Of a stretch of DNA of 64,000 nucleotides, positions 21,827 through 41,723 are shown piece after piece. The notes under the pieces are model-generated. The model was given only the letters and a program-made list of their open reading frames with translations, was not told where the DNA came from and ran no database searches. The DNA is from Candidatus Acidiferrales bacterium (lineage in GTDB: Bacteria; Acidobacteriota; Terriglobia; Acidiferrales; 2-02-FULL-67-57), in assembly GCA_965247455.1 (NCBI GenBank), contig CBDFHE010000017.1, positions 3,048 through 67,047 of the forward strand. Reading direction: 5' to 3'. Position 1 is the first letter of the stretch. Each line of letters opens with the position of its first letter. A program made the translations under genes and the position numbers.

Positions 21827-22978
21827 TTAGACGTTAACGGTCAGGGTGGTGTCGATGCGCGCCTGACCGTCGGCGGTGCGGGTGACGGAACGATAGAGCG
21901 TGTCGCGCTCCACCGGCTCGCGCCCGGCCTCGCGAATCAGCCGCAGCAGTTCGGACCGCCGCAGACCCTGCGCGGTAGTGGCGCCGGCGTCGTGGTAGAT
22001 CTTCTCCTCAATCACGGTGCCGTCGATGTCGTCAGCGCCGAAGCGCAGCGCCACCTGCGCGATGCGCGGCGTGAGCATGATCCAGTAGGCCTTGATGTGA
22101 GGAAAGTTGTCGAGCAGCAGGCGGCTGGCGGCGATGTTTTTCAAGTCGAGAAAACCGGTGGGCTTGGGGAGGTGAGAGAGCGCGGTGTTCTCCGGATGGA
22201 AGGCGAGCGGGATGAAGGTGACGAAGCCGCGGGTTTCGTCCTGCAACGCGCGCAGCTTGAGCAGGTGATCGACGCGCTCCTCTTCGGTCTCGATGTGGCC
22301 GTAGAGCATGGTGGCGTTGGAGCGCAAACCCAGCTCGTGGGCAGTGCGCGCAATTTGGAGCCACAGTTGCCCGGAGGTCTTATGGTCGCAGATGACCTTA
22401 CGCACCCGGGGATGGAAAATCTCTGCGCCGCCGCCGGGGAGCGAGTCGAGCCCCACCTGTTTCAACTTCAGCAGCACATCTCGCGTGGGCAGCTTGGTGA
22501 TCCTGGCGAGGTAGCCGATCTCGACCATGGTGAAAGCCTTCAAGTGCACCTGGGGGAAGCGCTGCTTGAGGCCGCGAATCAGGTCGAGGTAGTAGTCGAA
22601 CGTCAGGTCGGGGTGCAGCCCGCCCACGATGTGGAACTCGGTGACCGCCTCGGTGATGCCGCTGGCCGCGGTTCGGAAAGCCTCTTCCAGCGCCATGGTG
22701 TAGGCGCCGGGAGCGTCGGGGTCGCGCCCGAAGGCGCACAGGCGGCAGTGGGCCACGCAGACGTTGGTGGGGTTGATGTGCCGGTTAATGTTGTAGTAGC
22801 AGACGTTGCCGTGCAGGCGCTCGCGGACCGAGTTCGCCAGCCAGCCCAGCGCCAACAGGTCCGGGGTGCGGTAGAGCGACAGGCCATCCTCAAACGTCAG
22901 CCGCTCGCCCGTCTGCACTTTTTCAGCAACCGGCGCCAGCCGCTTGTCTTCAATTTGGAGTTTTGCCTGCACGTTCAA
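21827..22978 (-). CDS. mqnE: Aminodeoxyfutalosine synthase (radical SAM)
   Basis: NINPTNVCVAHCRLC, HIVGGLHP, SLPGGGAEIF, SNATMLYGH, FPHIKAYW. Confidence 0.9.
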   Translation of the reverse strand: MNVQAKLQIEDKRLAPVAEKVQTGERLTFEDGLSLYRTPDLLALGWLANSVRERLHGNVCYYNINRHINPTNVCVAHCRLCAFGRDPDAPGAYTMALEEAFRTAASGITEAVTEFHIVGGLHPDLTFDYYLDLIRGLKQRFPQVHLKAFTMVEIGYLARITKLPTRDVLLKLKQVGLDSLPGGGAEIFHPRVRKVICDHKTSGQLWLQIARTAHELGLRSNATMLYGHIETEEERVDHLLKLRALQDETRGFVTFIPLAFHPENTALSHLPKPTGFLDLKNIAASRLLLDNFPHIKAYWIMLTPRIAQVALRFGADDIDGTVIEEKIYHDAGATTAQGLRRSELLRLIREAGREPVERDTLYRSVTRTADGQARIDTTLTVNV

Positions 22979-23071
22979 GCTTGTTGCCCAGCGGCAGGGG
23001 CCCCGCGGAGCGGGACAGGCCGCCGGGTTGGACTTTATTACTCCATTTTAACTACCCGTCCGGAAGAGGTG

Positions 23072-23090
23072 CCTGCCTACCGCAGGCAGG
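23072..23090. repeat. 19-nt hairpin micro-element
   Basis: CCTGCCTACCGCAGGCAGG inside a larger GGAAGAGGTG...GCACCCGCTTCC hairpin. Confidence 0.85.
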
Positions 23091-23149
23091 CTTCGCACCC
23101 GCTTCCCGACCTCGTCTAACCCCGTGGCCCCTGCCACGGGGAAACTTAC

Positions 23150-24097
23150 TCAATACAAAATATCCGCTCCCCAGAAAACCAACAGCAAAATACTAATATA
23201 GCCGTTCACGGTAAAAAATGCAGCATTGACCTTGCTCAGATCGTCGGGCTTAACCAGCGAGTGCTCGTAAGCCAGCAGGGCCGCGACCAGCAGCAAGCCT
23301 GCGTAGGCTACCACACCTAACCCCGCCAACGCCGCCAGCCAAGCCAGCAAACCCAGCATCAGCAAGTGCAGCGCGCGCGAGACCCACAGCGCTCCGGCAA
23401 TGCCGAGGCTGACCGGAACCGAGAACAGTCCCGTCTTGCGGTCGAACTCTACGTCCTGGCAGGCGTAGATGATGTCGAAGCCCGCCACCCAGAACATCAC
23501 CGCCACCGTCAGGATGAAAATCCGCCAGTCGAGCGCACCGCGCACCGCAACCCACGCCCCGGCGGGCGCCATGCCCAGGCAGAACCCCAGCACCCAATGG
23601 CTCAAGGTGGTGAAGCGCTTGGTGTAGGAGTAGAGCAGCAGCACTGCCAGCACCAGCGGCGCAAGGCGAAAGGCCAGCGGGTTCAACTGCCAGGCAGCGA
23701 AAATCAGTGCCGCCGATGAGACCACGACGAACGCCCAGGTAAAGCGCAGCGAGAGCTTCCCGGTCGGCAGCTCGCGCGCGGCGGTGCGCGGGTTAATCTT
23801 ATCGTAGCGCAGGTCGGCGATGCGGTTGAACGCCATCGCGGCGCTGCGCCCGCCCACCATCGCCACCACAATCCAGAAAACCTGCTGCCCGGTCGGCCAG
23901 CCCTCCGCCGCCAGCAGCGCGCCCAGAAAAGCAAACGGCAGCGCGAAGATCGAGTGCTCGAACTTGATCATCCGCAACGTCATCAGCAAAGGACGAAACA
24001 GGAAACTCGAAAAGCGAAACTCGGTATTCTCTCCTTCAAGAACGAGTTTCGAATTTCGAATTTCGAGTTTCAACATCATCCTTTGGTGCCTTTCCAC
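23150..24097 (-). CDS. UbiA-family prenyltransferase (menaquinone, MqnP-like); true start probably near 23983
   Basis: MIKFEHSIFALPF, NRIADLRYDKINPRTAARELP, GFDIIYACQD. Confidence 0.9.
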   Translation of the reverse strand: MERHQRMMLKLEIRNSKLVLEGENTEFRFSSFLFRPLLMTLRMIKFEHSIFALPFAFLGALLAAEGWPTGQQVFWIVVAMVGGRSAAMAFNRIADLRYDKINPRTAARELPTGKLSLRFTWAFVVVSSAALIFAAWQLNPLAFRLAPLVLAVLLLYSYTKRFTTLSHWVLGFCLGMAPAGAWVAVRGALDWRIFILTVAVMFWVAGFDIIYACQDVEFDRKTGLFSVPVSLGIAGALWVSRALHLLMLGLLAWLAALAGLGVVAYAGLLLVAALLAYEHSLVKPDDLSKVNAAFFTVNGYISILLLVFWGADILY

Positions 24098-27837: not shown

Positions 27838-29097
27838 CTAGTCGCTGGACTCAAGGCGGTAAGGTTTCTTCTTGTAGGAGGACGCCAGCCGGGTAACTTC
27901 GCGGTCGGCGGACAAGCGGATGACTTGGTCGTACTTCGCCAGGGCTTTTTCCCGCTCGCGCCTACGGTCGAAAATTCGGCCTTGCTCCAGCAGCGCCCAA
28001 GCCAGCACTGCCTCCTTCGCTTCGGCCACCTCTTCCACCCGATGGAAAGAGTCCAGCGCGGCATCGAGGTCTCCGGCGGCGGCTTCCACCCGGCCGAGTT
28101 CCAGCCAGACATCTTCCGGCCCCAGGATGCGGGGGTTGTGGGACCGGGCGGCCAGCTCGGCCACAAGCTGCCGGAAGGCTTGCCGGGCCTCAGGGTAGCG
28201 CTGCTGGCGACGATAGACGCGCGCGAGTTCGTAGGGAAAGAGAGGATTGCGGGGGTAGTCAATCCGCAGGCCTTCCAACAGACGCCGGGCGCGGTCCAGT
28301 TGCTGTTCGCGCAGACAGGCTACGGCCAGCAGCACGCGGGCGTACCCGCGCAGGAATTCCCCCCGCTCGGCGGCCTCTCGCAGGTATTCCAAGCCGCGCG
28401 GGCGACTGCCGCGCGCGCCCAGAAAGAAGAGGAAGAAGCGCTGGACGCGCGGCAAGCTGCCCAGGACGTAGTCGTGGACGCCGAGGGTGACGCCAGCGTC
28501 GCCGATCCCCGGGTGCAACCGCCGGAGTTTCTTGTGGGCGTCGTAGGCTTTCTCGCCCAGGCGCACTCCTCGCACGTACTTGCCCTCAACTCCAGCGGCG
28601 TAATTGGCCCGCGCGCCGTAGGCCAACCCCAGAGCAAACAAACCGTCGGGGTCTTGTGGATTCTCTTTCAGCCGGCTGCGCGCCAAGTCCTGGGCTGCGG
28701 CTACAACATCGTAGAAACGCCGCTTCAGCTCCGGGTCAGGCGAAACGCGCCGCTGGCGAAGGAACTCATCGCCGGTGACGAAGAGCTGGCTCTGCAAGGT
28801 GCCCTGCCAGGCGAGGATCTCATAGAGGAAGGCCGAAGCCCAAAAGGCGCGGGCGGCGGCGCTGGCCGGTTCGGCCTCAGTCACTTCGCGGAACAGATCG
28901 CGCGCGGTGGCAAATTCCAGGTTGTAGAGGAGATTAAAGGCGGTGTGGAGTTTCTGTTCGCTTTCACGGGAGACAGCGGCAGCAGTGCGAAGTTGCGTCG
29001 GCGGCAAGGCCGGCGCCTCCTACGCGCGGGCCGCGGCAGAATACACCCCCGCCAGCGCCATCAGTGTCAAGAATGCCAGTCTAGCCCACACACGCAT
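27838..29097 (-). CDS. Secreted TPR protein with an in-frame TAG at codon 26
   Basis: ATG 29097 gives signal peptide MRVWARLAFLTLMALAGVYSAAARA, then TAG (29020-29022), then the same frame as the 389-aa TPR ORF. Confidence 0.75.
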
Positions 29098-29156: not shown

Positions 29157-29957
29157 CTAGAGGCGAAGGGGTGCGAGAGGGGCGCTGCGGGGGGTGACGT
29201 GGAGTTCGGGCGGGCCGGCCAAGGAAAGGGGAAAGCGGGTGCGGCGGCGCTCCAGCGCCTGGGTGGCGGCCAGCCGGGCAACTTCCGGGGAGTTATTGTT
29301 CTCGCTCAGGTGCGCCAGAACCAAGTGGCTGGCGGCGCCGTCGAATTCAAACTCCAGGAATTCGGCCAGGGCGTGGTTGGAGAGGTGGCCGAGGCGGCTC
29401 ATCACCCGCTGTTTGATGAACCAGGGATAGGGGCCGCGGCGCAGCATCTCCAAGTCGTGATTGGCTTCCACGACCAGACAGTCGCAGCCGCGCAGGTGCT
29501 CTTTGACCAGCGTGGTCAGGAAGCCCAGGTCCACCGCAATGGCGAGCTTGACGCCTTCGGCCTGGAAGCGGAAAGCGACCGGGTCGGACGCGTCGTGGGG
29601 CACGAGGAAAGGCGCCACCTCGATGTCGCCGACGGTGAAGCGCTGCCCGGGCTGGAAGTGCTCGACGCGCGGCAGCCGCTGCCCTTCCCGCAGGGCCTGG
29701 CGGGTACCTTCGGCCAGATAGACGGGCGCACGGAACTCTTCGGCCAAAGCGGCGGCGTGGCCGGCGTGGTCGGCGTGCTCGTGCGTCAGGACGATACCGT
29801 CGAGGCCATTGGGACGCAGGCCGGCTTCGGCCATGCGTTTGCGAATGGTGCGCTTGGAGAGCCCGGCGTCAATCAGCAGGCGCGTGCGGGCGGTGGAGAG
29901 AAGGGCGGCGTTGCCCGACGAACCGCTGCCCAGGATAGTGAACTCGACCGCCGTGAC
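29157..29957 (-). CDS. MBL-fold metallo-hydrolase (YycJ/PhnP-like)
   Basis: Frame extends upstream of the listed ORF through FTILGSGSSGNAALL...LIDAG; THEHADH, HDASDP, EANHD, HLSN; start codon position reads GTC. Confidence 0.88.
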   Translation of the reverse strand, partial: VTAVEFTILGSGSSGNAALLSTARTRLLIDAGLSKRTIRKRMAEAGLRPNGLDGIVLTHEHADHAGHAAALAEEFRAPVYLAEGTRQALREGQRLPRVEHFQPGQRFTVGDIEVAPFLVPHDASDPVAFRFQAEGVKLAIAVDLGFLTTLVKEHLRGCDCLVVEANHDLEMLRRGPYPWFIKQRVMSRLGHLSNHALAEFLEFEFDGAASHLVLAHLSENNNSPEVARLAATQALERRRTRFPLSLAGPPELHVTPRSAPLAPLRL

Positions 29958-30072
29958 CCTGCCCTCCCAGTGGCTGGCACTGGTGTAACAGGAAAGCCGC
30001 CGAGCGTCAACCGCGAAACGCGGCGTTACGATTCCAGCAAATTGAACGACGCTCTCGCCGCTGGGGCAAGAC

Positions 30073-30837
30073 TCAATGAGCGACCACGAAGTCTTGCCGG
30101 GCCCAGCCGAAGTTGGCGTTGGCGGGGTCCATGGCCAGCACCATCAACTCGACCACGCCCCCGCCGGAAGGCACAAGCTCGCCGGCGAAAGCGAGCGTGG
30201 TTTCCGCTATGACGTCGCCGTCGTGCAGCAGCCGCGCCACGACCTGAATCTTGTCGGCGTCCCAGAGCCCACCGGGCTCGGTGGGGCACCCTCAAGCCAT
30301 GGTGACTTTGACCCGCACCGGCAAGGGCTGGCCCACGGCGGGGCGGACGTCGGAAGCGGGCGCGAGCAGCGCGACGATGAAGCCGTGAATCTCCAGCAGC
30401 ACGCCCTCGCCCAGCAGGTGCTGCCCCGGAACCAGCAGCAGGGTCTTAGAAGCGCGCTGGGTGGCCTGCGGGTTGCCCAGCGGGCCTTCAGCAGTAATCT
30501 CAACTACGGTGGGCCGCGCGAGTTGGAGCGTGGCCAGGAAGCCGGCGGTGCCGGGCGTGTCGTAAACCGTGGCGCCCCGCGCGCGGGGCTTGACCATGAT
30601 CAACTCGGTATTGCCGCTTCTCCCCTTCTGCACACCCTGAGCGAGAACCGTGCCGGTAGCGACCTCCCGGATGGTGATGCGGGCGCCGCCGACTGGGTCT
30701 TGAATGACTTTGGCGTCGCGGGAGACAGCCCGAACCATGACTTTGGTGAGGATTGCTTGCGCAGCGGCAGGGAGCCCGCCGGCAGCCACGCCGATCGCCA
30801 AAGCCGTCGCCAATACGAATCTGCTTTTCTGCATCAT
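30073..30837 (-). CDS. Probable secreted selenoprotein with U-G-C motif (254 aa, Sec182)
   Basis: Signal peptide; VKVTMA-TGA(30292-30294)-GCPTEPGGLWDAD...AMDPANANFGWARQDFVVAH-TGA(30073); stem-loop right after the UGA. Confidence 0.78.
30256..30291 (-). promoter_or_regulatory. Candidate bacterial SECIS element
   Basis: Upper stem GAGCCC/GGGCTC with loop GGU starting 18 nt after UGA; lower stem CCCA/UGGG plus further pairs. Confidence 0.7.
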
Positions 30838-31072
30838 TGCACCTCTCCATCTCATGTTAGAACTTGCGTACCAAGTTCCAGCGAAGGCGTCAAGAAGGTT
30901 TTTCCGTTGGCTCCCATGTGCCCAAGCAGTTGATTGGTTGCGGAGGTCGTCCGAGAGCTGTATCGAGTTTGTCTGTTCTGGTCGGTTGCAGCTTGCGCGG
31001 ACACGCCGCGAAGGGTTAGACTGCCTCCCCTCGGTTGATCCCGCAAAGTGCACTCAAGAGGAGGGCAATCCT

Positions 31073-31603
31073 ATGGCAGCGGTGAACCCAGTACCGAAAG
31101 AGAAAGCGGCAGCGGAAGTGCAGGACCTTTATAACGGAATGACGAAGAAGTTCGGGCGCATGCCCAACATCTTCGCGGTGATGGCGCACCGCCCGGCCGT
31201 GCTGAAGAATTTTGTGCCGTTCTACGTCGCAACGGTGGGCGAGGGAACAATTGAACCCAAGTACAAGGAGCTTGCCTACCTGAAGACTGCACTGCTGAAC
31301 GGCTGCGAGTATTGAACCCGCGCGCACACTGCTTCGGCGAAGCAGGCAGGGGTTACGGAAGAACAAATCAAGGCAATGCAGTTTTACCAGCGCAGCCCGT
31401 TGTTCGACGAGAAAGAGAAAGCCACGCTGCTCTACGCAGAGCGCGTAACCCGGGGAGCCGCCGGCTTGCGCGAGCGCGCGCTGGAGGAGTTGAAATACTT
31501 TTACCCCGAAGACCAGATTGTGGAACTGACGCTGGTGATCTGCGCGGCCAATTTCACCAACCGATTCAACGACGCGCTGCAGGTGGAACCCGACCTGGGC
31601 TGA
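31073..31603 (+). CDS. AhpD/CMD-family peroxidase-related selenoprotein (CxxU, 176 aa, Sec81)
   Basis: RBS GAGGAGG; ...KELAYLKTALLNGCEY-TGA(31313-31315)-TRAH...FDEKEKATLLYAERVT...QIVELTLVICAANFTNRFNDAL in one frame. Confidence 0.88.
31316..31354 (+). promoter_or_regulatory. Candidate bacterial SECIS element
   Basis: Perfect 7-bp stem CTGCTTC/GAAGCAG with loop GGC starting 20 nt after UGA; basal pairing AACCC/GGGTT. Confidence 0.75.
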
Positions 31604-31666
31604 AGCGAGGGCGCGCCGCTCCTGGTTGGGTGAGGCAGGTGCGCCTGCCCCTGGAGTTGGCGACGG

Positions 31667-32959
31667 TCAGCAGGCCAACTGGTCCCGGCGGAGCTCGAAA
31701 CCGTCCAGCTTGCCGAGAACGGCAGCGGCCACCAACTGCGGCTGGAAGAAGTCGCGCGCGGCCTGCTGGATTTCTTCCGCGGTCACGGCTTCGACCCGGG
31801 CGAGGATCTCCTCCGGGTCGTACACCCGCCCGAAATAAATCTGCTGCCGAGCCAGGCTGCCCATACGGGCTGAAGTGGACTCCAGCGAGAGCATCAATCC
31901 ACCCTTGAGGTTGTCTTTGGCCCGCCGCAGCTCGTCCGCCGGCACCGGCTCGCGCTTCAACAGACTGAACTCTTCCAGGATCAAGCGTAGCACCTGCTGG
32001 ACGCTTTCGTGCCCGGTGCCGGCCGAAACCGACAGGCAGCCGGTGTCGCGGTAAGCGCTGGCGTCGGCAAAAATGGAATACACCAGGCCGCGCTGCTCCC
32101 GCACTTTCTGGAACAGCCGGGAACTCATTCCGCCACCCAGGATGAGGCTCAGCAAACTGACAATATAGCGCCGCTGGTCCGGGAGCGGGGAACAGGGCAC
32201 GCCCAGGCAGAGTTGGACTTGTTCCAACTCCGGCTTGGGGCTCGTCACCAGGGCCGCGTGGGCGCGCGGCCGGTGATCATTCGCCTCCGGTCCGCCCTCG
32301 CGACTGGGTTCGAGCCGGTTGAACTGTGCCGCCACCAGCTCGACAAAGCGCTCATGGTGCAAGCGGCCGGCGGCGGTGATCAGCATGCGCTCGGGACAGT
32401 ACCAGCGCTGGAAAAAGTTGCGCACCGACCGGCTGTCGAACTGGAGCACACTTTCTTTGGTGCCCAGAATGGGCCGCCCGATGGAGTGGTGAGGCCAGAA
32501 GTTTTGCGTGAAGGTTTCCTGGACCAGGTATTCCGGGTTGTCTTGCTCCATCTTGATTTCTTCCAGGATGACGCCCTGCTCTTTGCGCAGGTCCTCTTCC
32601 CGGAACAACGGCTCCAGCACCAAGTCAGCCAGGACGTCCAGGGCTCGCGGCAGGTGCTCATCCATCACCTTGGCATTGAAGCAAATGATCTCCTTGGAGG
32701 TGAAGGCGTCCATGTGCCCACCCACCGAGTCCAGCTCCATGGCGATCTGCTCGGCGCTGCGGCTGGTGGTGCCCTTGAAGACAGTGTGCTCGATGAAGTG
32801 GCTGATCCCGTTCACTTCCGCGGGCTCGGCCCGCGAGCCGCTCTTCACCCAAATGCCCAACGCCACCGAGCGCACGTGCGGCATCTGCTCGGTCAGAATC
32901 GTCAGCCCGTTGGCGAGCGTCTCTTGGCGCACACCTCGAACGTCGGTGGACACAATCAC
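31667..32959 (-). CDS. M16 family zinc peptidase
   Basis: GISHFIEHTVFKGT (HxxEH), DAFTSKE, VILEEIKM, GGGMSSRLFQKVRE. Confidence 0.93.
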   Translation of the reverse strand: MIVSTDVRGVRQETLANGLTILTEQMPHVRSVALGIWVKSGSRAEPAEVNGISHFIEHTVFKGTTSRSAEQIAMELDSVGGHMDAFTSKEIICFNAKVMDEHLPRALDVLADLVLEPLFREEDLRKEQGVILEEIKMEQDNPEYLVQETFTQNFWPHHSIGRPILGTKESVLQFDSRSVRNFFQRWYCPERMLITAAGRLHHERFVELVAAQFNRLEPSREGGPEANDHRPRAHAALVTSPKPELEQVQLCLGVPCSPLPDQRRYIVSLLSLILGGGMSSRLFQKVREQRGLVYSIFADASAYRDTGCLSVSAGTGHESVQQVLRLILEEFSLLKREPVPADELRRAKDNLKGGLMLSLESTSARMGSLARQQIYFGRVYDPEEILARVEAVTAEEIQQAARDFFQPQLVAAAVLGKLDGFELRRDQLAC

Positions 32960-33905: not shown

Positions 33906-34349
33906 CTACTCCCCCCTCTCGATCTTGGCCGTGATTAAGCCGATCTTGTCCACGCCAGCACCCTTGGCAATGTCAATCGCGCGCGCGACGTGGGAAAATT
34001 CCAGGTCATCCGCCCCCTTCACGAAGGCCACTTTCTCCGCCCGGGTCTTGAAGATGCCTTGCAACCGCGGCCCCAGGGTTCTCCAGGTCACGTCCTGCTG
34101 ATTGATCCTCAGGAGCACTCCCGTGCACCTGACGTTGGCGCACTCGAGCTGGATGGCTACCGTCCTGAGGTCGACATCCAACTGTTGCTGGTCGGGCGGC
34201 GGGGGTTGCGGCACCAGCGCGTCCAAGCCCTTGGGCGTCAGCGGGGTGACCACCATGAAAATGATGATCAGCACCAGCAGAATGTCAATCAAGGGGACGA
34301 TGTTGGGATCAGCCATCGCACCCTTGCCCTTTCCCATACTGATTCCCAT
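33906..34349 (-). CDS. exbD: Biopolymer transporter ExbD/TolR
   Basis: NIVPLIDILLVLIIIFMV; VKGADDLEF. Confidence 0.9.
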   Translation of the reverse strand: MGISMGKGKGAMADPNIVPLIDILLVLIIIFMVVTPLTPKGLDALVPQPPPPDQQQLDVDLRTVAIQLECANVRCTGVLLRINQQDVTWRTLGPRLQGIFKTRAEKVAFVKGADDLEFSHVARAIDIAKGAGVDKIGLITAKIERGE

Positions 34350-34377
34350 CGGGTTCCTCCTTGTCCTCTCGGTCGGG

Positions 34378-34845
34378 CTACAAGCCGCCTGTCGCCCCGG
34401 TCACCGCCTGCACCGGGATGGGCGGCCCTGTGAGCGCTCGCTGCTCGGTCAGCAGGCCGATCTGGTCCACGCCCACGGCGCGAATTTCATCCACAAGTTT
34501 CACTACGTCGCCGTAGCGGGCGCGGGCATCGCTCTTGACGTAGACGGACTTGTCCAGGCGCTCCTCGAGCATCTCACTGACTTTCTCCACCACCTGCTCC
34601 AACAGAACCTGCTGATTGCCGAGGTAGTACCGGCCGTCGCGCGACACCGCCAGCATCACGGCATCGTCCTTGTCGGCATCCTTCATGTCGCGGGGGTTAT
34701 CGGTTTTGGCCATCTCCACGCTGAAGCCCTTTTGCAGCATGGGTGTGATCACCATGAAAATGATCAGCATGACCAGCATGATGTCGGCCATCGGCACCAC
34801 GTTGATGTCCGGCATCAAGTCCGGCGCTTTGGGTTTGTAGCCCAT
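34378..34845 (-). CDS. exbD: Biopolymer transporter ExbD/TolR
   Basis: INVVPMADIMLVMLIIFMVITP; KSDARARYG. Confidence 0.9.
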   Translation of the reverse strand: MGYKPKAPDLMPDINVVPMADIMLVMLIIFMVITPMLQKGFSVEMAKTDNPRDMKDADKDDAVMLAVSRDGRYYLGNQQVLLEQVVEKVSEMLEERLDKSVYVKSDARARYGDVVKLVDEIRAVGVDQIGLLTEQRALTGPPIPVQAVTGATGGL

Positions 34846-34857
34846 GACGGTCCGCTC

Positions 34858-35565
34858 CTACTTCTTCCGACGCATGATGAAGTAGTTGATCAGCTCTTTG
34901 GAGCTGTTGTCCATCTCTACGTCGAAAGATTCGATCTTGCCGGTGAAGTAGTTGTACGCCCAGACGGCGGGCACCGCCACGAACAATCCCAGCGCGGTAG
35001 CGACCAGAGCTTCGGCAATACCGCCCGCCACGGCCGACAAACCGGTGGTCTTCGCCTCCGCAATGCCCTTGAAGGCGTTAATGATGCCCACCACAGTTCC
35101 GAACAACCCCACGAAAGGAGCGGTGGCGCCAATGGTGGCCAAGCCGCCCAGGCCGCGCTTGAGTTCGGCGTGCACGATGGCGACTGAACGCTCCAATCCG
35201 CGCTGGCTGGCATCAATCACCTCTTTTTCCGGCAAGCCGGTGGAGGCTTGGAACTCCGATAAGCCGGTGGCCACCACCTTGGCGATGTGGCTCTTCTTGC
35301 TGCGCTCGGCCACGCGGATGGCGTCATCCAGATTGCCTTCGCGCAAAGAGCCGGCCACCGCCTGCACGAAGTAGCGGGACTGCTTGCGGGCCGCTGAGTA
35401 AGTGACCCAGCGGTCAATCATCACTCCCACTGACCAGGCCGACATGATGAACAGGATGACCACCACCAGCTTGGCCAGGAGGCCCATCGCCTGCCACATA
35501 CTCTGCAGGTCCCAGCCGACTTCCTGCAACAGCCATAACCCCGTCAGATACAAGTTGGCATACAT
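34858..35565 (-). CDS. exbB: MotA/TolQ/ExbB proton channel protein
   Basis: LATIGATAPFVGLFGTV.GII.AF; GIAEALVATALGLFVAVPA. Confidence 0.92.
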   Translation of the reverse strand: MYANLYLTGLWLLQEVGWDLQSMWQAMGLLAKLVVVILFIMSAWSVGVMIDRWVTYSAARKQSRYFVQAVAGSLREGNLDDAIRVAERSKKSHIAKVVATGLSEFQASTGLPEKEVIDASQRGLERSVAIVHAELKRGLGGLATIGATAPFVGLFGTVVGIINAFKGIAEAKTTGLSAVAGGIAEALVATALGLFVAVPAVWAYNYFTGKIESFDVEMDNSSKELINYFIMRRKK

Positions 35566-35641
35566 ATCTTCTTTCCCCTCCCGTAAAATGTGCCCTTCAT
35601 TCGGCTCCGAGTACCATACTACCCCTACTGACTTGGCCTAA

Positions 35642-36346
35642 TTAGCCAAGCTTGAAGATTACATCAATGTAAGTTATTACTTCCACCGGCTGGTCGTTCA
35701 ACAACGTGGGCGCGTAGCGCCACTGCTTCACAGCCTGCAAGGCCGATTGCACCAGCAACGGATGTCCTTGAATGACTCTCAGGTTCTGGATGCTGCCATC
35801 CTTGGCAATAATGGCTTCCAGCCGCACCACACCTTGAATCCGCGCCTGCCGGGCGATGGGCGGATAGGTCGGGCTTATTTTGCGAATCACCTTGGCACCC
35901 TGCACGCCGGAGCTGACCCGAATCGGCTTCTGCGGTGGAGGCGGCGGTGCGGCGGACGGAATGCCTCCCAGCACGCCGCCCATCACACCTCCGATCTGAC
36001 CGCCGGGCACACCACCGGGGACGCCGAAAGCCACGCCACCCAAGTCTTCCTCGATGACGGCGACCTTTTTCGGAATGGCCTTGGGCGTGCGCAGTTTTCC
36101 CGCCTGTATCTGAGTGACCTTCCGGCGCACCATACGCCGAATCGGCTTGGCCGACGGTGGCGGCGGAGGCGGCGGAGGCGGAGCGGTCAGGAAGGTAAGC
36201 CGCATGGACTCCGGCAGCGCTTCGGTTTGGATCAAACCCACCAGAACCAATGCCCCCAGCAGCACTGTCTGCAAGGAAGTGGAGATCACATAGGCCCACG
36301 GTTTTTTACGCTTGGCCACAGAGGACTCCAAGATGCTCTCAAACAT
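35642..36346 (-). CDS. tonB: Energy transducer TonB
   Basis: N-terminal TM, poly-Pro linker, YPPIARQARIQGVV...AVKQWRY.P. Confidence 0.92.
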   Translation of the reverse strand: MFESILESSVAKRKKPWAYVISTSLQTVLLGALVLVGLIQTEALPESMRLTFLTAPPPPPPPPPSAKPIRRMVRRKVTQIQAGKLRTPKAIPKKVAVIEEDLGGVAFGVPGGVPGGQIGGVMGGVLGGIPSAAPPPPPQKPIRVSSGVQGAKVIRKISPTYPPIARQARIQGVVRLEAIIAKDGSIQNLRVIQGHPLLVQSALQAVKQWRYAPTLLNDQPVEVITYIDVIFKLG

Positions 36347-36349
36347 GAT

Positions 36350-37600
36350 TCAGCGCCCCCTTCGCTCTGCCATATTAGCTTTTTCCTTCCGCTTCACGAC
36401 CTCGACCTGTTCTGATTTGGGAAGAGCTGTAGGTCGGCCCCAACTCCTCCCTCGCTCGCTCCAGCCTACCACAATTGGGCTGGCAATAAAAACAGAAGAA
36501 TAAGTGCCCACCAGCACCCCCACCAGCAGCGTAAATCCGAAGCCGTGCAGCACCTCTCCTCCCAGCAAGAATAACGCCAGAACCGCCAGGAATGTCAACC
36601 CCGAAGTGAGCACGGTGCGGCTGAGCGTCTGGTTGATGCTGCGGTTCACCAGGGCCGGAAACGACTCCCGCCGCAGCAGGCGGACGTTCTCCCGGATGCG
36701 GTCGAAGGTCACGATCGTGTCATTGACGGAAAACCCCACCAGCGTGAGCAGCGCGGCCACGATGTTTAGATTGAACTCGTAGTCGAACAGCGCAAGAAAA
36801 CCAACCGTAATCAGCACGTCGTGGAAGACGGCGATGACCGCCGCCATCCCGTACACCCACTCCCGGAACCGAACTCCAATGTAAAACAGCACCCCGGCCA
36901 GCGCCAAGCCCGTGGCCAGCAACGCCTGCTGGCGGAGCTGCTGCCCCACGCGCGGCCCCACCACCTCCACGTTCCGCACCACAAACGGCGCCAGCATCGC
37001 CTCTTCTTCCAGCCCGTTCACCACCGCCGGCGGCACCCCTTCCAGCCCGCGCAACTCCTCCAGGCTGCCCAGCAATCCTCCCCTCTGTGTATCGCGGAAG
37101 TCTGTGATGTTTCTCGCAATCTCCTGGTAGCGGCTGGCGGCTTCGGTGGGGCGGCCGCTCAGGCCGATGGGATCCAAACGCACCAGCGCCTCGCGCAGCG
37201 AAGCGGTTCCGACGGCGTTGAGGTCCAGCCGGTCGGCAGGCACCTCGTAGGTAGCGCGCAACGCAGCCAGGATTGCCTGCCGGCTGGTGTCCAGGGCTTC
37301 GTCCTCGTTCTCCGCTTGCTCGGCCCCGATGATGACTTCGTAGTTCTCCACGCGGCCATAGCGCTGAAGCGTGCTCGATCCGATCCCTTCCGCGCGCAGG
37401 CCGGCGCGCAGGCGGTTCAGTTCGGGCGCTTCCGCAAACTTAACGTACACCAGCGTGCCACCTTTGAAGTCCACCCCGTAGCGCAGCCCGCCCCCCAGCA
37501 CCAGTGAGCCAACCCCCGCCAGCAACAACACCAGCGAGAGGCCGAGGAACGGCCACTTCGCCCGCAGGAAATCGAACTTGGGTTCGCGAAACAGCTCCAT
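36350..37600 (-). CDS. secF: Protein translocase subunit SecF
   Basis: GVDFKGG, VGPRVG, GFSVNDTIVTFDRIRE, RTVLTS, GTYSS. Confidence 0.96.
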   Translation of the reverse strand: MELFREPKFDFLRAKWPFLGLSLVLLLAGVGSLVLGGGLRYGVDFKGGTLVYVKFAEAPELNRLRAGLRAEGIGSSTLQRYGRVENYEVIIGAEQAENEDEALDTSRQAILAALRATYEVPADRLDLNAVGTASLREALVRLDPIGLSGRPTEAASRYQEIARNITDFRDTQRGGLLGSLEELRGLEGVPPAVVNGLEEEAMLAPFVVRNVEVVGPRVGQQLRQQALLATGLALAGVLFYIGVRFREWVYGMAAVIAVFHDVLITVGFLALFDYEFNLNIVAALLTLVGFSVNDTIVTFDRIRENVRLLRRESFPALVNRSINQTLSRTVLTSGLTFLAVLALFLLGGEVLHGFGFTLLVGVLVGTYSSVFIASPIVVGWSERGRSWGRPTALPKSEQVEVVKRKEKANMAERRGR

Positions 37601-37603
37601 AGT

Positions 37604-39256
37604 TCAAATACTCAAAGCCGACGGACGCACCTGCCGGCCCAACACAAATTCAAAAATTGCCCGCGAGACGTACACCGCCGTGAACAGATTGGCGAACAGG
37701 CCGATGGTCAGCGTGACCGCAAATCCCTTCACCGGCCCGGTGCCGAACATAAACAGGAAGATGGCGGCGATGATGGTGGTGGCATTGGTGTCGAAGATGG
37801 TGGTGAAGGCGCGGTCGAAGCCGTTCTCCATCGCCGCCACCACACTCTTGCCCACCCGCAGTTCTTCCCGGATACGCTCAAAGACCAGCACGTTGGCGTC
37901 CACCGCCATGCCGATGGTCAGCAGCACCCCGGCAATCCCCGGCAGCGTGAGCGTGGCGCCGAAGTAAGCCAGCACCGCCAGCAAAATCAGCAGGTTCAGC
38001 ACCAACGAAATCAGCGCGTTTATGCCCGACCGGTGGTAATAGAACAGCATGAAAAGCACCACGCCGACGAAGCCCACCGACACCGCCGTGAAGCCGGCGC
38101 GGATGGAGTCCGCCCCCAGCGACGGCCCCACCGTGCGCTCCTCCAGGTACTTGATTGACGCCGGCAGCGAACCCGAGCGCAACACCAACGCTAGGTCGGC
38201 CGCCTCTTGGAAGGTAAACGTCCCGGTGATGCGCCCCGAGTCGTCAATCCGGCTCTGGATGTTGGCCACCGAGCGGATGCGGTTGTCCAGCACCACCGCC
38301 AGCGGCCGCCCCACGTTGCGCTCGGTGAAGGGCCCAAAGCGGGCAGCGCCGTCGGTGCTGAGCGTGAAGTCAATCTCGTAGCTCCCCGGCATCTCCGGGT
38401 TCACCGCCGCGCGGGCGTTGCGTAGGTCGCGCCCGGTCACCACCGAGCTGCGGCTCACGACGTACCAACCGCTGGTGCCGGCCTCAAGTGAGCGCAGCAG
38501 CATGGTGTCCGGGGGCAGAATTCCGCCCCGGGTGCTCAGGGTCTCGCCCTCACTCCCAAACGGGCCGTCTTCCACCAGCTTGATCTCCAGCATGGCGGTG
38601 GATTGCAAAATGCTCTTCACCCGCGCCGGGTCGTCCACGCCCGGCAGTTGCACCAGGATTTCCCACTCGCCCCGGCCGTGCTCGGCAATGGTGGGCTCGC
38701 TCACCCCCAGGGCATCTATACGTTGCCGAATGGTCTGGATCGAGTTGCGCAGCGCTTCCTGCCGGACCTGAACCTGCAAGCTAGGAGTCATCTCCAGCAC
38801 GAAGCCGGATTGCTCGGTCGGCAAACTGCCCAGGGCGTAGGCGCCCCCGCCCACGGTGCTGGGGCTGGTGTAGTTCACTTGCAGGAAATCTCTCGCTTGC
38901 CCCAGTTGCTCGGCCGGGATGCCTGAAATCTGGATGTGGGTAGGGTCCGGCTTGCGGATGCTGCCGAAGCCGATGGCCTCTTCGCGCAGCAGCGTGCGCA
39001 GGCGCTCGGCCACCTGGTCGGTCTCCGAATTGATGGCTTCTGCCACCTGCACCTGCAAGATTAGGTGCATGCCGCCGCGCAGGTCGAGGCCCAGGTTGAT
39101 GCGGTCGCCCAAGTTGCCGCGCAACTCGTCGGTGCTGGTGGGGAAGGCGAACTGCGCCCCGCCGTCCGTCCCCTTGCGGAAGCACAGCAGCCCGAACAGG
39201 CAGACGAGGATGACGCCGAAGATCAGCGTCGCCTTCCAGCGGAGGTTCCGAGTCAT
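37604..39256 (-). CDS. secD: Protein translocase subunit SecD
   Basis: LGLDLRGG, LGVSEP, VQLPG, LRSGSLP, VGPSLG, GMAVDANVL. Confidence 0.96.
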   Translation of the reverse strand: MTRNLRWKATLIFGVILVCLFGLLCFRKGTDGGAQFAFPTSTDELRGNLGDRINLGLDLRGGMHLILQVQVAEAINSETDQVAERLRTLLREEAIGFGSIRKPDPTHIQISGIPAEQLGQARDFLQVNYTSPSTVGGGAYALGSLPTEQSGFVLEMTPSLQVQVRQEALRNSIQTIRQRIDALGVSEPTIAEHGRGEWEILVQLPGVDDPARVKSILQSTAMLEIKLVEDGPFGSEGETLSTRGGILPPDTMLLRSLEAGTSGWYVVSRSSVVTGRDLRNARAAVNPEMPGSYEIDFTLSTDGAARFGPFTERNVGRPLAVVLDNRIRSVANIQSRIDDSGRITGTFTFQEAADLALVLRSGSLPASIKYLEERTVGPSLGADSIRAGFTAVSVGFVGVVLFMLFYYHRSGINALISLVLNLLILLAVLAYFGATLTLPGIAGVLLTIGMAVDANVLVFERIREELRVGKSVVAAMENGFDRAFTTIFDTNATTIIAAIFLFMFGTGPVKGFAVTLTIGLFANLFTAVYVSRAIFEFVLGRQVRPSALSI

Positions 39257-39271
39257 AAGCGCGGGTGTGGA

Positions 39272-39619
39272 CTAACCCTTGGGCTCCTCCCCCGGGGCCT
39301 GCTGGTGGCCGGCAATGTGACTCCGCAGAATCTCCACCTTCACCTGCTCGGCGATGCGCAAGTGCACTGTGCTGCCCCGCAACGCCACGATGGTACCGTG
39401 GAGGCCCCCGCTGGTCACCACCTTGTCGCCGGTCTTCAGCGCCACCAGCATTGCTTGCTGGCGCTTGCGCTGCCGCTGCGCCGGACGAATCAGCAAGAAG
39501 TAGAAAATAACCAGGACAATCAGGAAGGGAAACAACGCCCCTATGATGCCGGGCTGCTGCTGCGCCTGCGCCAACCCCGCCACCGGAGACGCAAGCAAAA
39601 TACTGGCACCTTCGAGCAA
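39272..39619 (-). CDS. yajC: Preprotein translocase subunit YajC
   Basis: IFYFLLIRP, LKTGDKVVTSGGLHG. Confidence 0.93.
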   Translation of the reverse strand: MLEGASILLASPVAGLAQAQQQPGIIGALFPFLIVLVIFYFLLIRPAQRQRKRQQAMLVALKTGDKVVTSGGLHGTIVALRGSTVHLRIAEQVKVEILRSHIAGHQQAPGEEPKG

Positions 39620-39732
39620 GCGGAACCCCCTTCGGAGGAAAGTGAACCCGCCCCCGCTCCACGCGAACGGGGCGACCCAAACCAGAGAGGATGCCCGACG
39701 CTAACTCCTCTTGTCAAGCCGCGATTCCGCTT

Positions 39733-39933
39733 GGCTGTGGGTCTTTTTGAAAATGGGAAGCTCACGCCGAGCCCCGGGGCTTGTCCTGCCTGTCCCGAGC
39801 GTAGGCGAGGGAAGCGAAGCCGAAGGGCACCTGCCACGGGGCGCTTGTGCCGCTTTTCCGCCCGGCGGCCTGCCTGCGGTAGGCAGGCAGGTGCCCCGCT
39901 GGAAGGTACGGGACAGGCCGCCGGGCTCAGCGG
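39733..39933. mobile_element. Decayed copy of MITE family A carrying three inserted hairpin modules
   Basis: Colinear with 2525-2640 after removing inserts at ~39781-39828, 39869-39887 and ~39894-39917; right TIR not found. Confidence 0.75.
39869..39887. repeat. 19-nt hairpin micro-element
   Basis: CCTGCCTGCGGTAGGCAGG; absent at the same site of the intact MITE (2525-2666). Confidence 0.9.
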
Positions 39934-40013
39934 CCAACCAACAGTAGGCAAGCGGCGGGGCACAAGGCCCCGCCCTACCCCGCTGCTGGGCACAGAAACA
40001 GGTAGGGCAGGGG

Positions 40014-40032
40014 CTTGCCTGCCTCAGGTAGG
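40014..40032. repeat. 19-nt hairpin micro-element (variant)
   Basis: CTTGCCTGCCTCAGGTAGG interrupting GTAGGGCAGGGG|CTTGCC. Confidence 0.6.
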
Positions 40033-40122
40033 CTTGCCGAAGGGCCCCTGCGTTCTGCTCTTGGGAGAACACCCTCACGGCGACCGTGGAACCGAGCACG
40101 TGAGGTCTGCGACACCGAGGCG

Positions 40123-41723
<1,601 letters not shown>

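What the first reader, a model, noticed from the sequence alone, without database searches (positions are those of the whole stretch)
30073..31603. Divergent two-selenoprotein module sharing one control region and one SECIS style
The two UGA genes are head-to-head across 235 bp, and both SECIS candidates have a 6-7 bp upper stem with a 3-nt GG(C/U) loop 18-20 nt from UGA. Two independent UGAs at Cys-type positions in neighbouring genes are unlikely to be errors. A cytoplasmic peroxidase-like enzyme plus an exported UxC protein could form a co-regulated trans-envelope redox or metal-detox unit that I do not recognise as described.
Basis: inference. Interest (0 to 1): 0.8.

Follow-up and report, generated by a model that had tools for sequence, protein, structure and literature searches.

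The report
Two real selenoprotein genes, head-to-head
Two neighbouring genes of a soil Acidobacterium each use a UGA codon for selenocysteine: one belongs to a known AhpD-like family, and the other is an exported protein from a widespread family that seems never to have been recognised as a selenoprotein, but the pairing itself is a local accident rather than a conserved unit.

Summary
Gene 1 (30837..30073, minus strand) and gene 2 (31073..31603, plus strand) lie head-to-head across 235 bp. Each has one in-frame TGA at a conserved Cys position, followed by a 6-7 bp hairpin with a GGN triloop.

Both UGAs are Sec codons. For gene 2, a CMD/AhpD-like protein with motif CEYU, 79 of 80 metagenomic relatives keep the TGA, and the hairpin shows compensatory changes. 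For gene 1, an exported protein with motif UGC, 23 of 73 surveyed species carry the TGA. Their hairpin is fixed at synonymous sites. None of 50 Cys-form genes tabulated can form it.

Gene 2 belongs to a known selenoprotein kind. Gene 1 belongs to a large family of about 260-residue proteins with no Pfam or NCBIfam model. It is modelled as two Ig-like domains and is absent from a 2026 inventory of 119 selenoprotein families. I rate it a likely new selenoprotein family.

The "module" is only partly supported. The same layout occurs only in relatives about 95% identical in DNA. One distant lineage independently places a different AhpD-like selenoprotein just downstream of a gene 1 homologue. The shared SECIS style is lineage-wide, and no shared control motif was found.

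The parts
30073..30837 (-). Gene 1: exported UGC selenoprotein, 254 codons plus a TGA stop at 30075..30073. It has a signal peptide, is modelled as two Ig-like beta-sandwich domains, and carries U182-G-C184 between them.
   Evidence: Translation. Alignment with 260-residue Cys homologues continues past the TGA. 1266 homologues were found, none with a Pfam domain. No Pfam or NCBIfam hit. AF2 model of homologue P0036 has pLDDT 82.
30754..30837 (-). Signal peptide (MMQKSRFVLATALAIGVAAGGLPAAAQA, with an AQA cleavage motif). There are two adjacent ATGs. A GGAGAGG Shine-Dalgarno sequence lies at 30848..30842.
   Evidence: Read from the sequence. Modelled as an N-terminal helix in the homologue. The export call is an inference from the sequence pattern; no predictor was run.
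30292..30294 (-). Sec codon (UGA) of gene 1, codon 182.
   Evidence: It aligns with the first Cys of the invariant CGCP(T/I)EPGG motif. 23 of 73 species carry TGA here with the frame conserved downstream.
30265..30279 (-). SECIS core hairpin of gene 1: GAGCCC-GGU-GGGCUC, nt 16-30 after the U of UGA.
   Evidence: MFE -9.1 kcal/mol. 23 of 24 Sec-form sequences tabulated form 6 of 6 pairs, against 0 of 50 Cys-form loci. 99.2% of cells are paired, with one GC/CG compensatory pair.
30838..31072 (.). 235-bp divergent intergenic region. It must hold both promoters, which were not identified.
   Evidence: No sigma-70-like site and no inverted repeat. It is 89% identical to L013 and L007, no better conserved than the flanks.
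31073..31603 (+). Gene 2: cytoplasmic CMD/AhpD-like selenoprotein, 176 codons plus stop, with motif C78-E-Y-U81. An AAGAGGAGGG Shine-Dalgarno sequence lies at 31057..31066.
   Evidence: Pfam PF02627 at 69.3 bits (cutoff 23). TIGR00778 at 42.1 bits (cutoff 27.8). Translation.
31313..31315 (+). Sec codon (UGA) of gene 2, codon 81.
   Evidence: 79 of 80 relatives at 68-77% identity carry TGA here. One has TGT (CQYC).
31329..31345 (+). SECIS core hairpin of gene 2: CUGCUUC-GGC-GAAGCAG, nt 17-33 after the U of UGA.
   Evidence: MFE -7.6 kcal/mol. 99.7% of cells are paired across 48 distinct sequences. Two pairs show compensatory changes (CG 28, UA 17, GC 2; and CG 46, UA 2). 0 of 500 shuffles reach the observed score.

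Best explanation
The locus holds two genuine selenoprotein genes that were brought head-to-head recently in one acidobacterial lineage. They most likely work independently.

**Decoding.** Each mRNA carries a standard bacterial SECIS directly after its UGA: a 12-13 nt spacer, a 6-7 bp G+C-rich stem and a G-G-N triloop. By analogy with characterised bacteria, SelB carrying Sec-tRNA(Sec) would bind this hairpin and insert Sec. That step is inferred.

**Gene 2.** It is a cytoplasmic AhpD/CMD-fold protein whose CxxC redox pair has become CxxU. This is a known selenoprotein kind. It probably acts as a peroxide or disulfide reductase using a selenenylsulfide.

**Gene 1.** It is exported through a Sec-type signal peptide. 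It is modelled as two Ig-like beta-sandwich domains. The U-G-C triad (C-G-C in most relatives) sits in the structured link between the domains, where it can cycle between a selenol/thiol pair and a selenenylsulfide. It belongs to a large uncharacterised family found mainly in Acidobacteriota, and also in Gemmatimonadota, Rhodothermia and Methylomirabilis-like MAGs. About a third of the surveyed species use Sec. I infer a periplasmic thiol/selenol redox or sulfur-handling role.

**Shown versus inferred.** Shown: the gene models, the Sec/Cys correspondence, the SECIS conservation and the lack of conserved linkage. Inferred: SelB binding, export and the chemistry of both proteins.
For: **Gene 1 Sec codon**
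- The TGA aligns with the first Cys of the invariant CGCP motif, and similarity continues for 72 residues after it.
- TGA occupies this position in 23 of 73 species representatives.

**Gene 1 SECIS**
- In 23 of 24 Sec-form sequences the codons E/Q-P-G-G-L are held as (G/C)AG CCC GGN GGG CU(C/G).
- Stem third positions are fixed, while the loop third base and flanking third positions vary.
- A GAG..CUC to CAG..CUG compensatory change occurs in 4 species.
- 0 of 50 Cys forms can form the stem.

**Gene 2**
- Membership of PF02627 and TIGR00778.
- 79 of 80 relatives keep the TGA.
- The helix is 99.7% paired, with CG, UA and GC at the outer pair coupled to T/I/S and Arg-codon changes. The single Cys form has no hairpin.

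**Fit to the published bSECIS model**
- Both hairpins meet its criteria (PMC13188914 section 5).

**Gene 1 family**
- No Pfam, NCBIfam or PDB sequence match.
- AF2 pLDDT 82, with two beta-sandwich domains and only generic Ig, FN3 and MG-domain fold matches.
- Absent from the 119-family inventory.

**Linkage is not conserved**
-.
- The neighbours in the window are housekeeping genes.
Against: - No Sec machinery (selA, selB, selC, selD) and no tRNA lie in the 64-kb window, so Sec decoding in this organism is inferred from conservation only.
- A second, phylogenetically distant lineage has an AhpD-like selenoprotein immediately downstream of the UGC gene. Another has a YeeE-type selenoprotein 1.8 kb upstream. 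Some functional or regulatory coupling among these selenoprotein genes therefore cannot be excluded.
- The claim that gene 1's family is unrecognised rests on two model libraries, one review table and a few keyword searches. Supplementary lists of other studies were not checked.
- The function proposed for gene 1 has no direct evidence.
Confidence: 0.8

Rival explanations
1. The two genes form a co-regulated functional unit in which a cytoplasmic AhpD-like selenoenzyme and an exported UGC selenoprotein cooperate in redox defence or metal/metalloid detoxification across the envelope.
For: - Head-to-head layout with a single 235-bp control region.
- Both proteins have two-residue redox motifs containing Sec.
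- An independent tandem juxtaposition occurs in a distant lineage: GGT, then the UGC protein, then a TIGR01926 CFYU selenoprotein (L022, L026, L171).
- Clustering of AhpD-like genes with other selenoprotein genes has precedent (PMC13188914 section 9).
Against: - Linkage is absent from 80 of 80 gene 2 relatives and from all 50 Cys-form gene 1 loci tabulated. It is also absent from the Sec-form lineages outside the window's own group and the L022/L026/L171 group.
- The two products sit in different compartments, and no DsbD/CcdA-type conduit is encoded nearby.
- No shared motif was found in the intergenic region.
- The SECIS similarity is lineage-wide.
Confidence: 0.15
2. The function of gene 1's family is periplasmic handling of inorganic sulfur. 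In this reading the CGC/UGC loop carries or exchanges sulfane sulfur or thiosulfate with SoxA/TsdA-type cytochromes, in a way analogous to the SoxYZ carrier. The Sec form would be a more reactive version.
For: - In 29 Cys-form loci the gene lies divergent from a SoxA/TsdA-type dihaem cytochrome c. The cytochrome is often accompanied by SorA-like, SorB-like and thiosulfate-dehydrogenase-like genes.
- The cytochrome stays adjacent when the Sor genes are absent (L001, L003).
- Sec-form loci sometimes neighbour DoxX/DoxD, a faint DrsE_2 (DsrE-like) hit, a monohaem cytochrome c, or a YeeE thiosulfate-transporter selenoprotein.
- The protein is built of Ig-like domains, as SoxY and SoxZ are (the SoxYZ fold is from my own knowledge), with the Cys motif at the domain junction.
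Against: - The cytochrome- and Sor-linked loci form one clade, so the linkage may be inherited synteny.
- There is no Pfam SoxY or SoxZ hit and no GGCGG swinging-arm motif.
- SoxYZ is not among the top 50 fold matches.
- Most Sec-form neighbourhoods are unrelated housekeeping genes.
- No such genes lie near the window's copy.
Confidence: 0.2
3. One or both TGAs are true stops or sequencing errors, so the genes are truncated or are pseudogenes.
For: Gene callers split both genes at the TGA in every public record seen. No Sec machinery is visible in the window.
Against: - The same TGA is conserved in dozens of independent assemblies.
- Coding signal and amino-acid conservation continue downstream in frame.
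- The TGA aligns with Cys in homologues.
- The adjacent hairpin is under selection at synonymous sites and shows covariation.
Confidence: 0.02

Closest known systems
AhpD-like / CMD-like CxxU selenoproteins (TIGR01926, PF02627; Zhang and Gladyshev metagenome studies, listed in PMC13188914 Table 1)
   Same: Gene 2 has the CMD fold (PF02627) and the AhpD core domain (TIGR00778). Sec replaces the second Cys of the CxxC pair. It has no signal peptide, and a SECIS follows the UGA directly.
   Different: Gene 2 scores below the cutoffs of the named subfamilies: TIGR01926 at 65 bits against 81.8, and NF053654 at 102 bits against 310. It therefore represents a soil-acidobacterial subfamily of its own. 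That subfamily is almost entirely Sec-containing (79 of 80).
Bacterial SECIS consensus (bSECISearch model; E. coli fdhF as archetype)
   Same: Both elements have a small apical loop beginning with GG, an upper stem of 6-7 bp, 18-20 nt between the UGA and the loop, and an MFE of -7.5 kcal/mol or lower. Both lie inside the coding sequence.
   Different: The loop is a minimal triloop with no bulged U. No Rfam model matches either element. The same style appears in three unrelated genes of Acidobacteriota, so it looks like a phylum-level variant.
UGC-motif selenoproteins already listed: DUF1573 domain protein (PF07610) and UGC-containing TlpA family
   Same: They share a Sec-Gly-Cys triad. DUF1573 is, from my own knowledge, also a beta-sandwich domain.
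   Different: None of 85 family members hits PF07610 even at E up to 10, and there is no thioredoxin fold. Gene 1's family has no model in Pfam or NCBIfam.
SoxYZ carrier with the SoxAX cytochrome (sulfur oxidation)
   Same: Both are periplasmic Ig-like domains with a reactive Cys at the junction of the two domains. Both are genetically linked to a SoxA/TsdA-family cytochrome c, in one clade of Cys forms.
   Different: Gene 1's family has no sequence similarity to SoxY or SoxZ. Its motif is CGCP in a structured loop, not a C-terminal GGCGG arm. It is a single polypeptide. Its linkage to the cytochrome is confined to one clade.
Selenoprotein gene clusters and operons (grdAB, the SAO and Tso operons, Prx-like with AhpD-like pairs)
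   Same: Two selenoprotein genes are adjacent, one of them AhpD-like.
   Different: Here the genes are divergent, not co-transcribed, and the adjacency is not conserved beyond close relatives.

Membership tests
Bacterial selenoprotein gene (both genes) | In-frame UGA that aligns with Cys in homologues, with coding conservation continuing downstream | tested here: met
   Gene 1. Gene 2: where the Cys form L157 has CQYC.
Bacterial selenoprotein gene (both genes) | [quoted passage not shown] | tested here: met
   Loops are GGU and GGC. Stems are 6 and 7 bp. Spacing is 18 and 20 nt. MFE is -9.1 and -7.6 kcal/mol. Criteria are taken from PMC13188914. Conservation and covariation are shown.
Bacterial selenoprotein gene (both genes) | The genome encodes selA, selB, selC and selD | not testable with these tools
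   Only the 64-kb window is available. It has no tRNA or Rfam hit, and none of these genes lies within about 10 kb. The window's contig is not in the gene-position index.
Bacterial selenoprotein gene (both genes) | Selenium demonstrated in the protein | not testable with these tools
   Needs 75Se labelling or mass spectrometry.
CMD / AhpD-like CxxU selenoprotein (gene 2) | CMD domain (PF02627) and AhpD core domain (TIGR00778) above the curated cutoffs | tested here: met
   69.3 bits against 23, and 42.1 bits against 27.8.
CMD / AhpD-like CxxU selenoprotein (gene 2) | Sec at the second position of the CxxC redox pair | tested here: met
   The motif is C78-E-Y-U81, conserved as CEYU in 79 relatives.
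TIGR01926 peroxidase-related enzyme (the 'AhpD-like protein' row of the inventory) | Score above the curated cutoff of 81.8 bits | tested here: not met
   Gene 2 scores 65 bits. By contrast the L022 neighbour scores 152 bits and is a member.
NF053654 YciW-related (seleno)protein | Score above the curated cutoff of 310 bits | tested here: not met
   101.9 bits.
DUF1573 UGC selenoprotein (gene 1) | Match to PF07610 | tested here: not met
   No hit for gene 1 at E up to 0.1, or for 85 family members at E up to 10.
SoxY / SoxZ carrier (gene 1) | SoxY or SoxZ domain match and a C-terminal GGCGG carrier motif | tested here: not met
   No Pfam or NCBIfam hit. The motif is CGCPTEPGG and is internal. 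SoxYZ is not among the top 50 Foldseek matches, which is inconclusive at the level of single domains.
   The same layout is found only in relatives about 95% identical in DNA. Linkage is seen in 0 of 80 gene 2 loci and 0 of 50 Cys-form loci. One further independent juxtaposition involves a different CMD subfamily.

The most novel reading that the evidence does not exclude
The UGC/CGC two-Ig-domain protein defines a new class of periplasmic chalcogen redox or carrier proteins. Its hinge-loop selenenylsulfide would exchange sulfur or selenium species with SoxA/TsdA-type cytochromes. In some lineages it would be functionally paired with cytoplasmic AhpD-like selenoproteins, making the head-to-head pair in this window a real, recurrently assembled selenium-dependent stress unit.
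Probability: 0.12. Interest if true: 0.7.

Novelty: new member of a known kind. Interest (0 to 1): 0.42.

Why it matters
Nearly all catalogued bacterial selenoproteins have thioredoxin-like or otherwise well-known enzyme folds, and most were catalogued from marine or anaerobic organisms. This case adds an exported, Ig-like, UGC-motif family that is common in soil Acidobacteriota.

Public gene calls cut every Sec-form of the family seen here into fragments, an N-terminal one of about 180 residues and in some records a second of about 63. A model for this family, and for the soil CEYU subfamily of AhpD-like proteins, would correct many annotations. It would also enlarge the known selenoproteome of a dominant soil phylum.

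The paired Sec-form and Cys-form data give an unusually clean natural experiment on SECIS constraints inside coding sequence: a 6-7 bp stem, a GGN triloop and synonymous sites frozen only in the Sec forms.

The two-gene module itself does not appear to be a general biological unit.

Tried and rejected
- **Rfam.** Both the whole window at gathering thresholds and 29900-31800 at E up to 10 gave no hit. No tRNA was found in the window.
- **Homologue search for gene 2.** The large protein-database search failed three times with time-outs. I used a metagenome DNA scan instead.
- **Window contig.** Two look-ups of the window's own contig in the gene-position index failed, so I could not search for sel genes beyond the window.
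- **Folding energy.** The z-scores of the 70-nt post-UGA stretches are about 0, so energy alone does not single out the SECIS.
- **Fold and sequence searches for gene 1.** Foldseek against PDB and BFVD gave only generic Ig, FN3 and MG-domain matches with TM 0.2-0.34. The viral search was uninformative. A PDB profile search gave nothing.
- **Intergenic region.** Scans for promoters, terminators and repeats found nothing usable. The region is no more conserved than its flanks.
- **Short ORFs next to Sec-form homologues.** I suspected these were split selenoprotein genes, but they turned out to be spurious frames.
- **SoxYZ and DUF1573 membership.** Both were considered and rejected on sequence grounds.
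- **Pseudogene or error reading.** Rejected on conservation.
Full report
**1. What is in the sequence**

Gene 1 lies on the minus strand from 30837 to 30073. It has 254 codons with a single in-frame TGA at 30294..30292, codon 182.
- It begins MMQKSRFVLATALAIGVAAGGLPAAAQA. I read this as a Sec-type signal peptide with an AQA cleavage site.
- The TGA lies in the motif TMA-U-GCPTEPGGLWD.

Gene 2 lies on the plus strand from 31073 to 31603. It has 176 codons with one in-frame TGA at 31313..31315, codon 81, in the motif NGCEY-U-TRAH.
- It has a strong Shine-Dalgarno sequence and no signal peptide.

The two start codons are 235 bp apart (30838..31072).
- Gene 1: GAGCCC-GGU-GGGCUC, 18 nt after the UGA, MFE -9.1 kcal/mol.
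- Gene 2: CUGCUUC-GGC-GAAGCAG, 20 nt after the UGA, MFE -7.6 kcal/mol.

**2. Is it more than chance?**

Folding energy alone says little. The 70-nt stretches after each UGA have z-scores near 0. A TGA followed by a G-first triloop hairpin occurs 20 times in the window, against about 11 in shuffles. Only two of those have an open frame of at least 50 codons on both sides, and they are these two genes. The real evidence is comparative.

**3. Gene 2 is a member of a known selenoprotein kind**

- It matches the carboxymuconolactone decarboxylase/AhpD fold: PF02627 at 69.3 bits against a cutoff of 23, and TIGR00778 at 42.1 bits against 27.8.
- It falls below the cutoffs of the named subfamilies: TIGR01926 at 65 bits against 81.8, and NF053654 at 102 bits against 310.
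- AhpD-like and CMD-like CxxU proteins are listed among known prokaryotic selenoproteins (PMC13188914 Table 1).

A metagenome scan returned 80 relatives at 68-77% identity.
- 79 of them have TGA at the same codon, and one has TGT.
- In 48 distinct sequences the 7-bp helix is 99.7% paired.
- The outermost pair is C-G in 28, U-A in 17 and G-C in 2. It is produced by T/I/S codons (ACC, AUC, AGC) matched to synonymous Arg codons (CGG, CGA, CGC).
- A second pair switches between C-G and U-A.
- No shuffle out of 500 reaches the observed covariation score or the percentage of cells paired.
- The single Cys form has no hairpin.

This is a functional SECIS.

**4. Gene 1 is a real selenoprotein of an unrecognised family**

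A protein search found 1266 homologues, none with a Pfam domain.
- All relatives at 89% identity or more are called as fragments of about 181 residues ending at the TGA.
- Relatives at 55-66% identity are about 260 residues long and carry C-G-C where the window has U-G-C. Similarity continues to the C-terminus.

A scan of one genome per species returned 73 loci. Most are Acidobacteriota. Others are Gemmatimonadota, Rhodothermia (including the cultivated Roseithermus sacchariphilus), a Methylomirabilis MAG and Nitrospira. The two Nitrospira copies have SGS at this position.

23 of the 73 have TGA at this codon and 48 have TGC or TGT.

Codon-level comparison shows selection on the hairpin.
- In 23 of 24 Sec-form sequences the five codons for E/Q-P-G-G-L read (G/C)AG CCC GGN GGG CU(C/G) and form 6 of 6 pairs.
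- The third positions inside the stem are frozen.
- The third base of the loop codon takes all four values, and the flanking Gly, Cys, Pro and Thr codons vary freely.
- Four species carry the compensatory change GAG..CUC to CAG..CUG.
- None of the 50 Cys-form genes tabulated can form the stem. The typical count is 3-4 of 6 pairs, because they use CCG/CCT, GGC/GGT and CTG/TTG.

**5. What gene 1's protein looks like**

- Neither gene 1 nor 85 family members match any Pfam or NCBIfam model. This includes DUF1573 (PF07610), one of the two listed families with a UGC motif; the other, a TlpA-type thioredoxin-fold family, is also unmatched. Only weak beta-sandwich hits appear.
- A profile search of PDB sequences found nothing.
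- An AlphaFold model of the Cys homologue P0036 (85-sequence alignment, pLDDT 82) shows a signal helix and two Ig-like beta-sandwich domains. The CGC lies at residues 181-183 between them.
- Foldseek returns only generic Ig, FN3 and macroglobulin-domain matches.
- The family is not in the 2026 inventory of 119 selenoprotein families. Keyword searches found no report.

I therefore regard it as a likely new selenoprotein family, with the caveat that I did not check supplementary lists of other studies.

**6. Is it a module?**

The identical divergent layout occurs in L013 and L007-L012, with both TGAs kept. Their flanking genes are 94-95% identical in DNA to the window, so they are the same lineage.

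Beyond that lineage:
- None of the 80 gene 2 relatives has a gene 1 homologue nearby, and 51 of them have at least 1 kb upstream. They share no conserved neighbour at all.
- None of the 50 Cys-form gene 1 loci tabulated has a CMD gene within 8 kb, by tblastn and by a custom HMM on six-frame translations read through TGA.
- Sec-form neighbourhoods are heterogeneous: iPGM, GH20, DeoR, M20 peptidase, AspRS, SDR, PurS and others.
- In the window the flanks are housekeeping genes. On one side are MBL-fold hydrolase, TPR protein and adenylosuccinate lyase. On the other are M16 peptidase, TPR protein, ExbBD-TonB and SecDF-YajC-Tgt.
- The 235-bp gap has no sigma-70-like site and no palindrome. It is no better conserved than its surroundings.

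In L022, L026 and L171 the order is gamma-glutamyltranspeptidase, then the UGC gene, then an AhpD-like selenoprotein, all on one strand.
- That neighbour is a different subfamily. It is 26-29% identical to gene 2, is a true TIGR01926 member at 152 bits, and has motif CFYU.
- This lineage is far from the window's in a rough neighbour-joining tree.
- In L168 a YeeE/YedE gene with the known GUxSG Sec motif lies 1.8 kb upstream, together with OsmC and a ferritin-like gene.

So Sec-form copies sit near other selenoprotein genes more often than I would expect by chance. With an assumed CMD frequency of about 0.2% of genes, two independent juxtapositions among roughly 20 lineages would be unlikely. 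That frequency is an assumption, not a measurement. Co-location of selenoprotein genes is a known phenomenon that need not mean a shared pathway (PMC13188914 section 9).

**7. The shared SECIS style**

The TIGR01926 neighbour in L022 and L026 uses ACGGGGA-GGA-UCUCCGU, with the loop at nt 21-23. Three unrelated genes in distant Acidobacteriota therefore share the same design: a 6-7 bp stem and a GGN triloop about 18-20 nt after the UGA. This fits the published bacterial SECIS model. It most simply reflects the SelB of the phylum, not a property of this gene pair.

**8. Clues to function of gene 1's family**

In 29 Cys-form loci the gene is divergent from a SoxA/TsdA-type dihaem cytochrome c.
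- The cytochrome is often accompanied by a SorA-like molybdoenzyme (456 bits, cutoff 600), a SorB-like cytochrome, and a Tat-exported protein distantly related to a thiosulfate dehydrogenase model.
- The cytochrome stays adjacent where the Sor genes are missing.
- These loci form one clade, so the linkage may be inherited synteny.

Taken with scattered DoxX, DsrE-like, cytochrome c and YeeE neighbours of Sec forms, this points weakly to periplasmic sulfur or thiol redox chemistry. A CxC pair is known, from my own knowledge of CGC peptides and CxC active sites, to form a strained redox-active disulfide. U-G-C would form the selenenylsulfide equivalent. This part is inference.

**9. Verdict**

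- Both UGAs are Sec codons and both SECIS elements are functional by comparative criteria.
- Gene 2 is a new subfamily member of a known selenoprotein kind.
- Gene 1 is a likely new selenoprotein family, which makes this a new member of a known kind.
- The head-to-head "module" is lineage-specific, and its functional coupling is unproven.
- Interest is moderate. The value lies in annotation and selenoproteome coverage for a major soil phylum and in a clean SECIS data set, not in a new mechanism.

Noticed in passing
L019:4490-7958 (also L020, L025, L029 and other Cys-form loci); L001:4006-4821: Upstream of Cys-form homologues, and divergent from them, lies a periplasmic sulfur-oxidation-like cluster. 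It holds a Tat-exported protein distantly matching a thiosulfate dehydrogenase model, a SorA-like molybdoenzyme, a SorB-like monohaem cytochrome and a SoxA/TsdA-type dihaem cytochrome c. All such loci belong to one clade.
   Followed up: partly
L022:4-2180; L026:6169-9740; L171:3306-6530: Co-directional gene order: gamma-glutamyltranspeptidase, then the UGC selenoprotein, then a TIGR01926 AhpD-like selenoprotein with motif CFYU. The last gene has its own 7-bp stem and GGA-triloop SECIS.
   Followed up: yes
L168:25-4549: Upstream of a Sec-form homologue lie Pyr_redox_2, OsmC, a YeeE/YedE transporter with an in-frame TGA in the motif G-U-T-S-G (a known Sec family), and a ferritin-like gene that ends 12 nt before the UGC gene. 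HSP20 follows.
   Followed up: partly
window 30073-30837 compared with L013:8001-8801 and L007:3501-4301: The window's copy of gene 1 has two in-frame deletions relative to its closest relatives. It lacks a PTKV repeat after the signal peptide, and it has about 8 fewer residues in the C-terminal domain (ERSTYAGELPLSTAGP becomes ELVPSGGG). The gene is only 86% identical in DNA while its flanks are 94-95% identical, so it evolves faster than its surroundings.
   Followed up: partly
L083:8001-8699; L085:8001-8567: The Nitrospira homologues (40-41% identity) have S-G-S in place of C/U-G-C, so they lack both redox residues.
   Followed up: no
P0116 (405 aa): One homologue carries an N-terminal extension of about 150 residues, with its own Cys-rich start (ACTCVP), fused to the family domain.
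   Followed up: no
window 21827-24097 and 33906-41328: The surrounding genes are housekeeping. On one side are an MqnC-like radical SAM enzyme and a UbiA prenyltransferase, which I read as futalosine-route menaquinone genes (inference). On the other side are ExbD x2, ExbB, TonB, SecF, SecD, YajC and Tgt. No selenium-metabolism genes lie within about 10 kb.
   Followed up: partly
window 27838-29007: A 389-residue TPR protein lies between the MBL-fold hydrolase and adenylosuccinate lyase in the window. It is absent at that place in the close relative L007, where Lactamase_B is followed directly by Lyase_1/ADSL_C.
   Followed up: no
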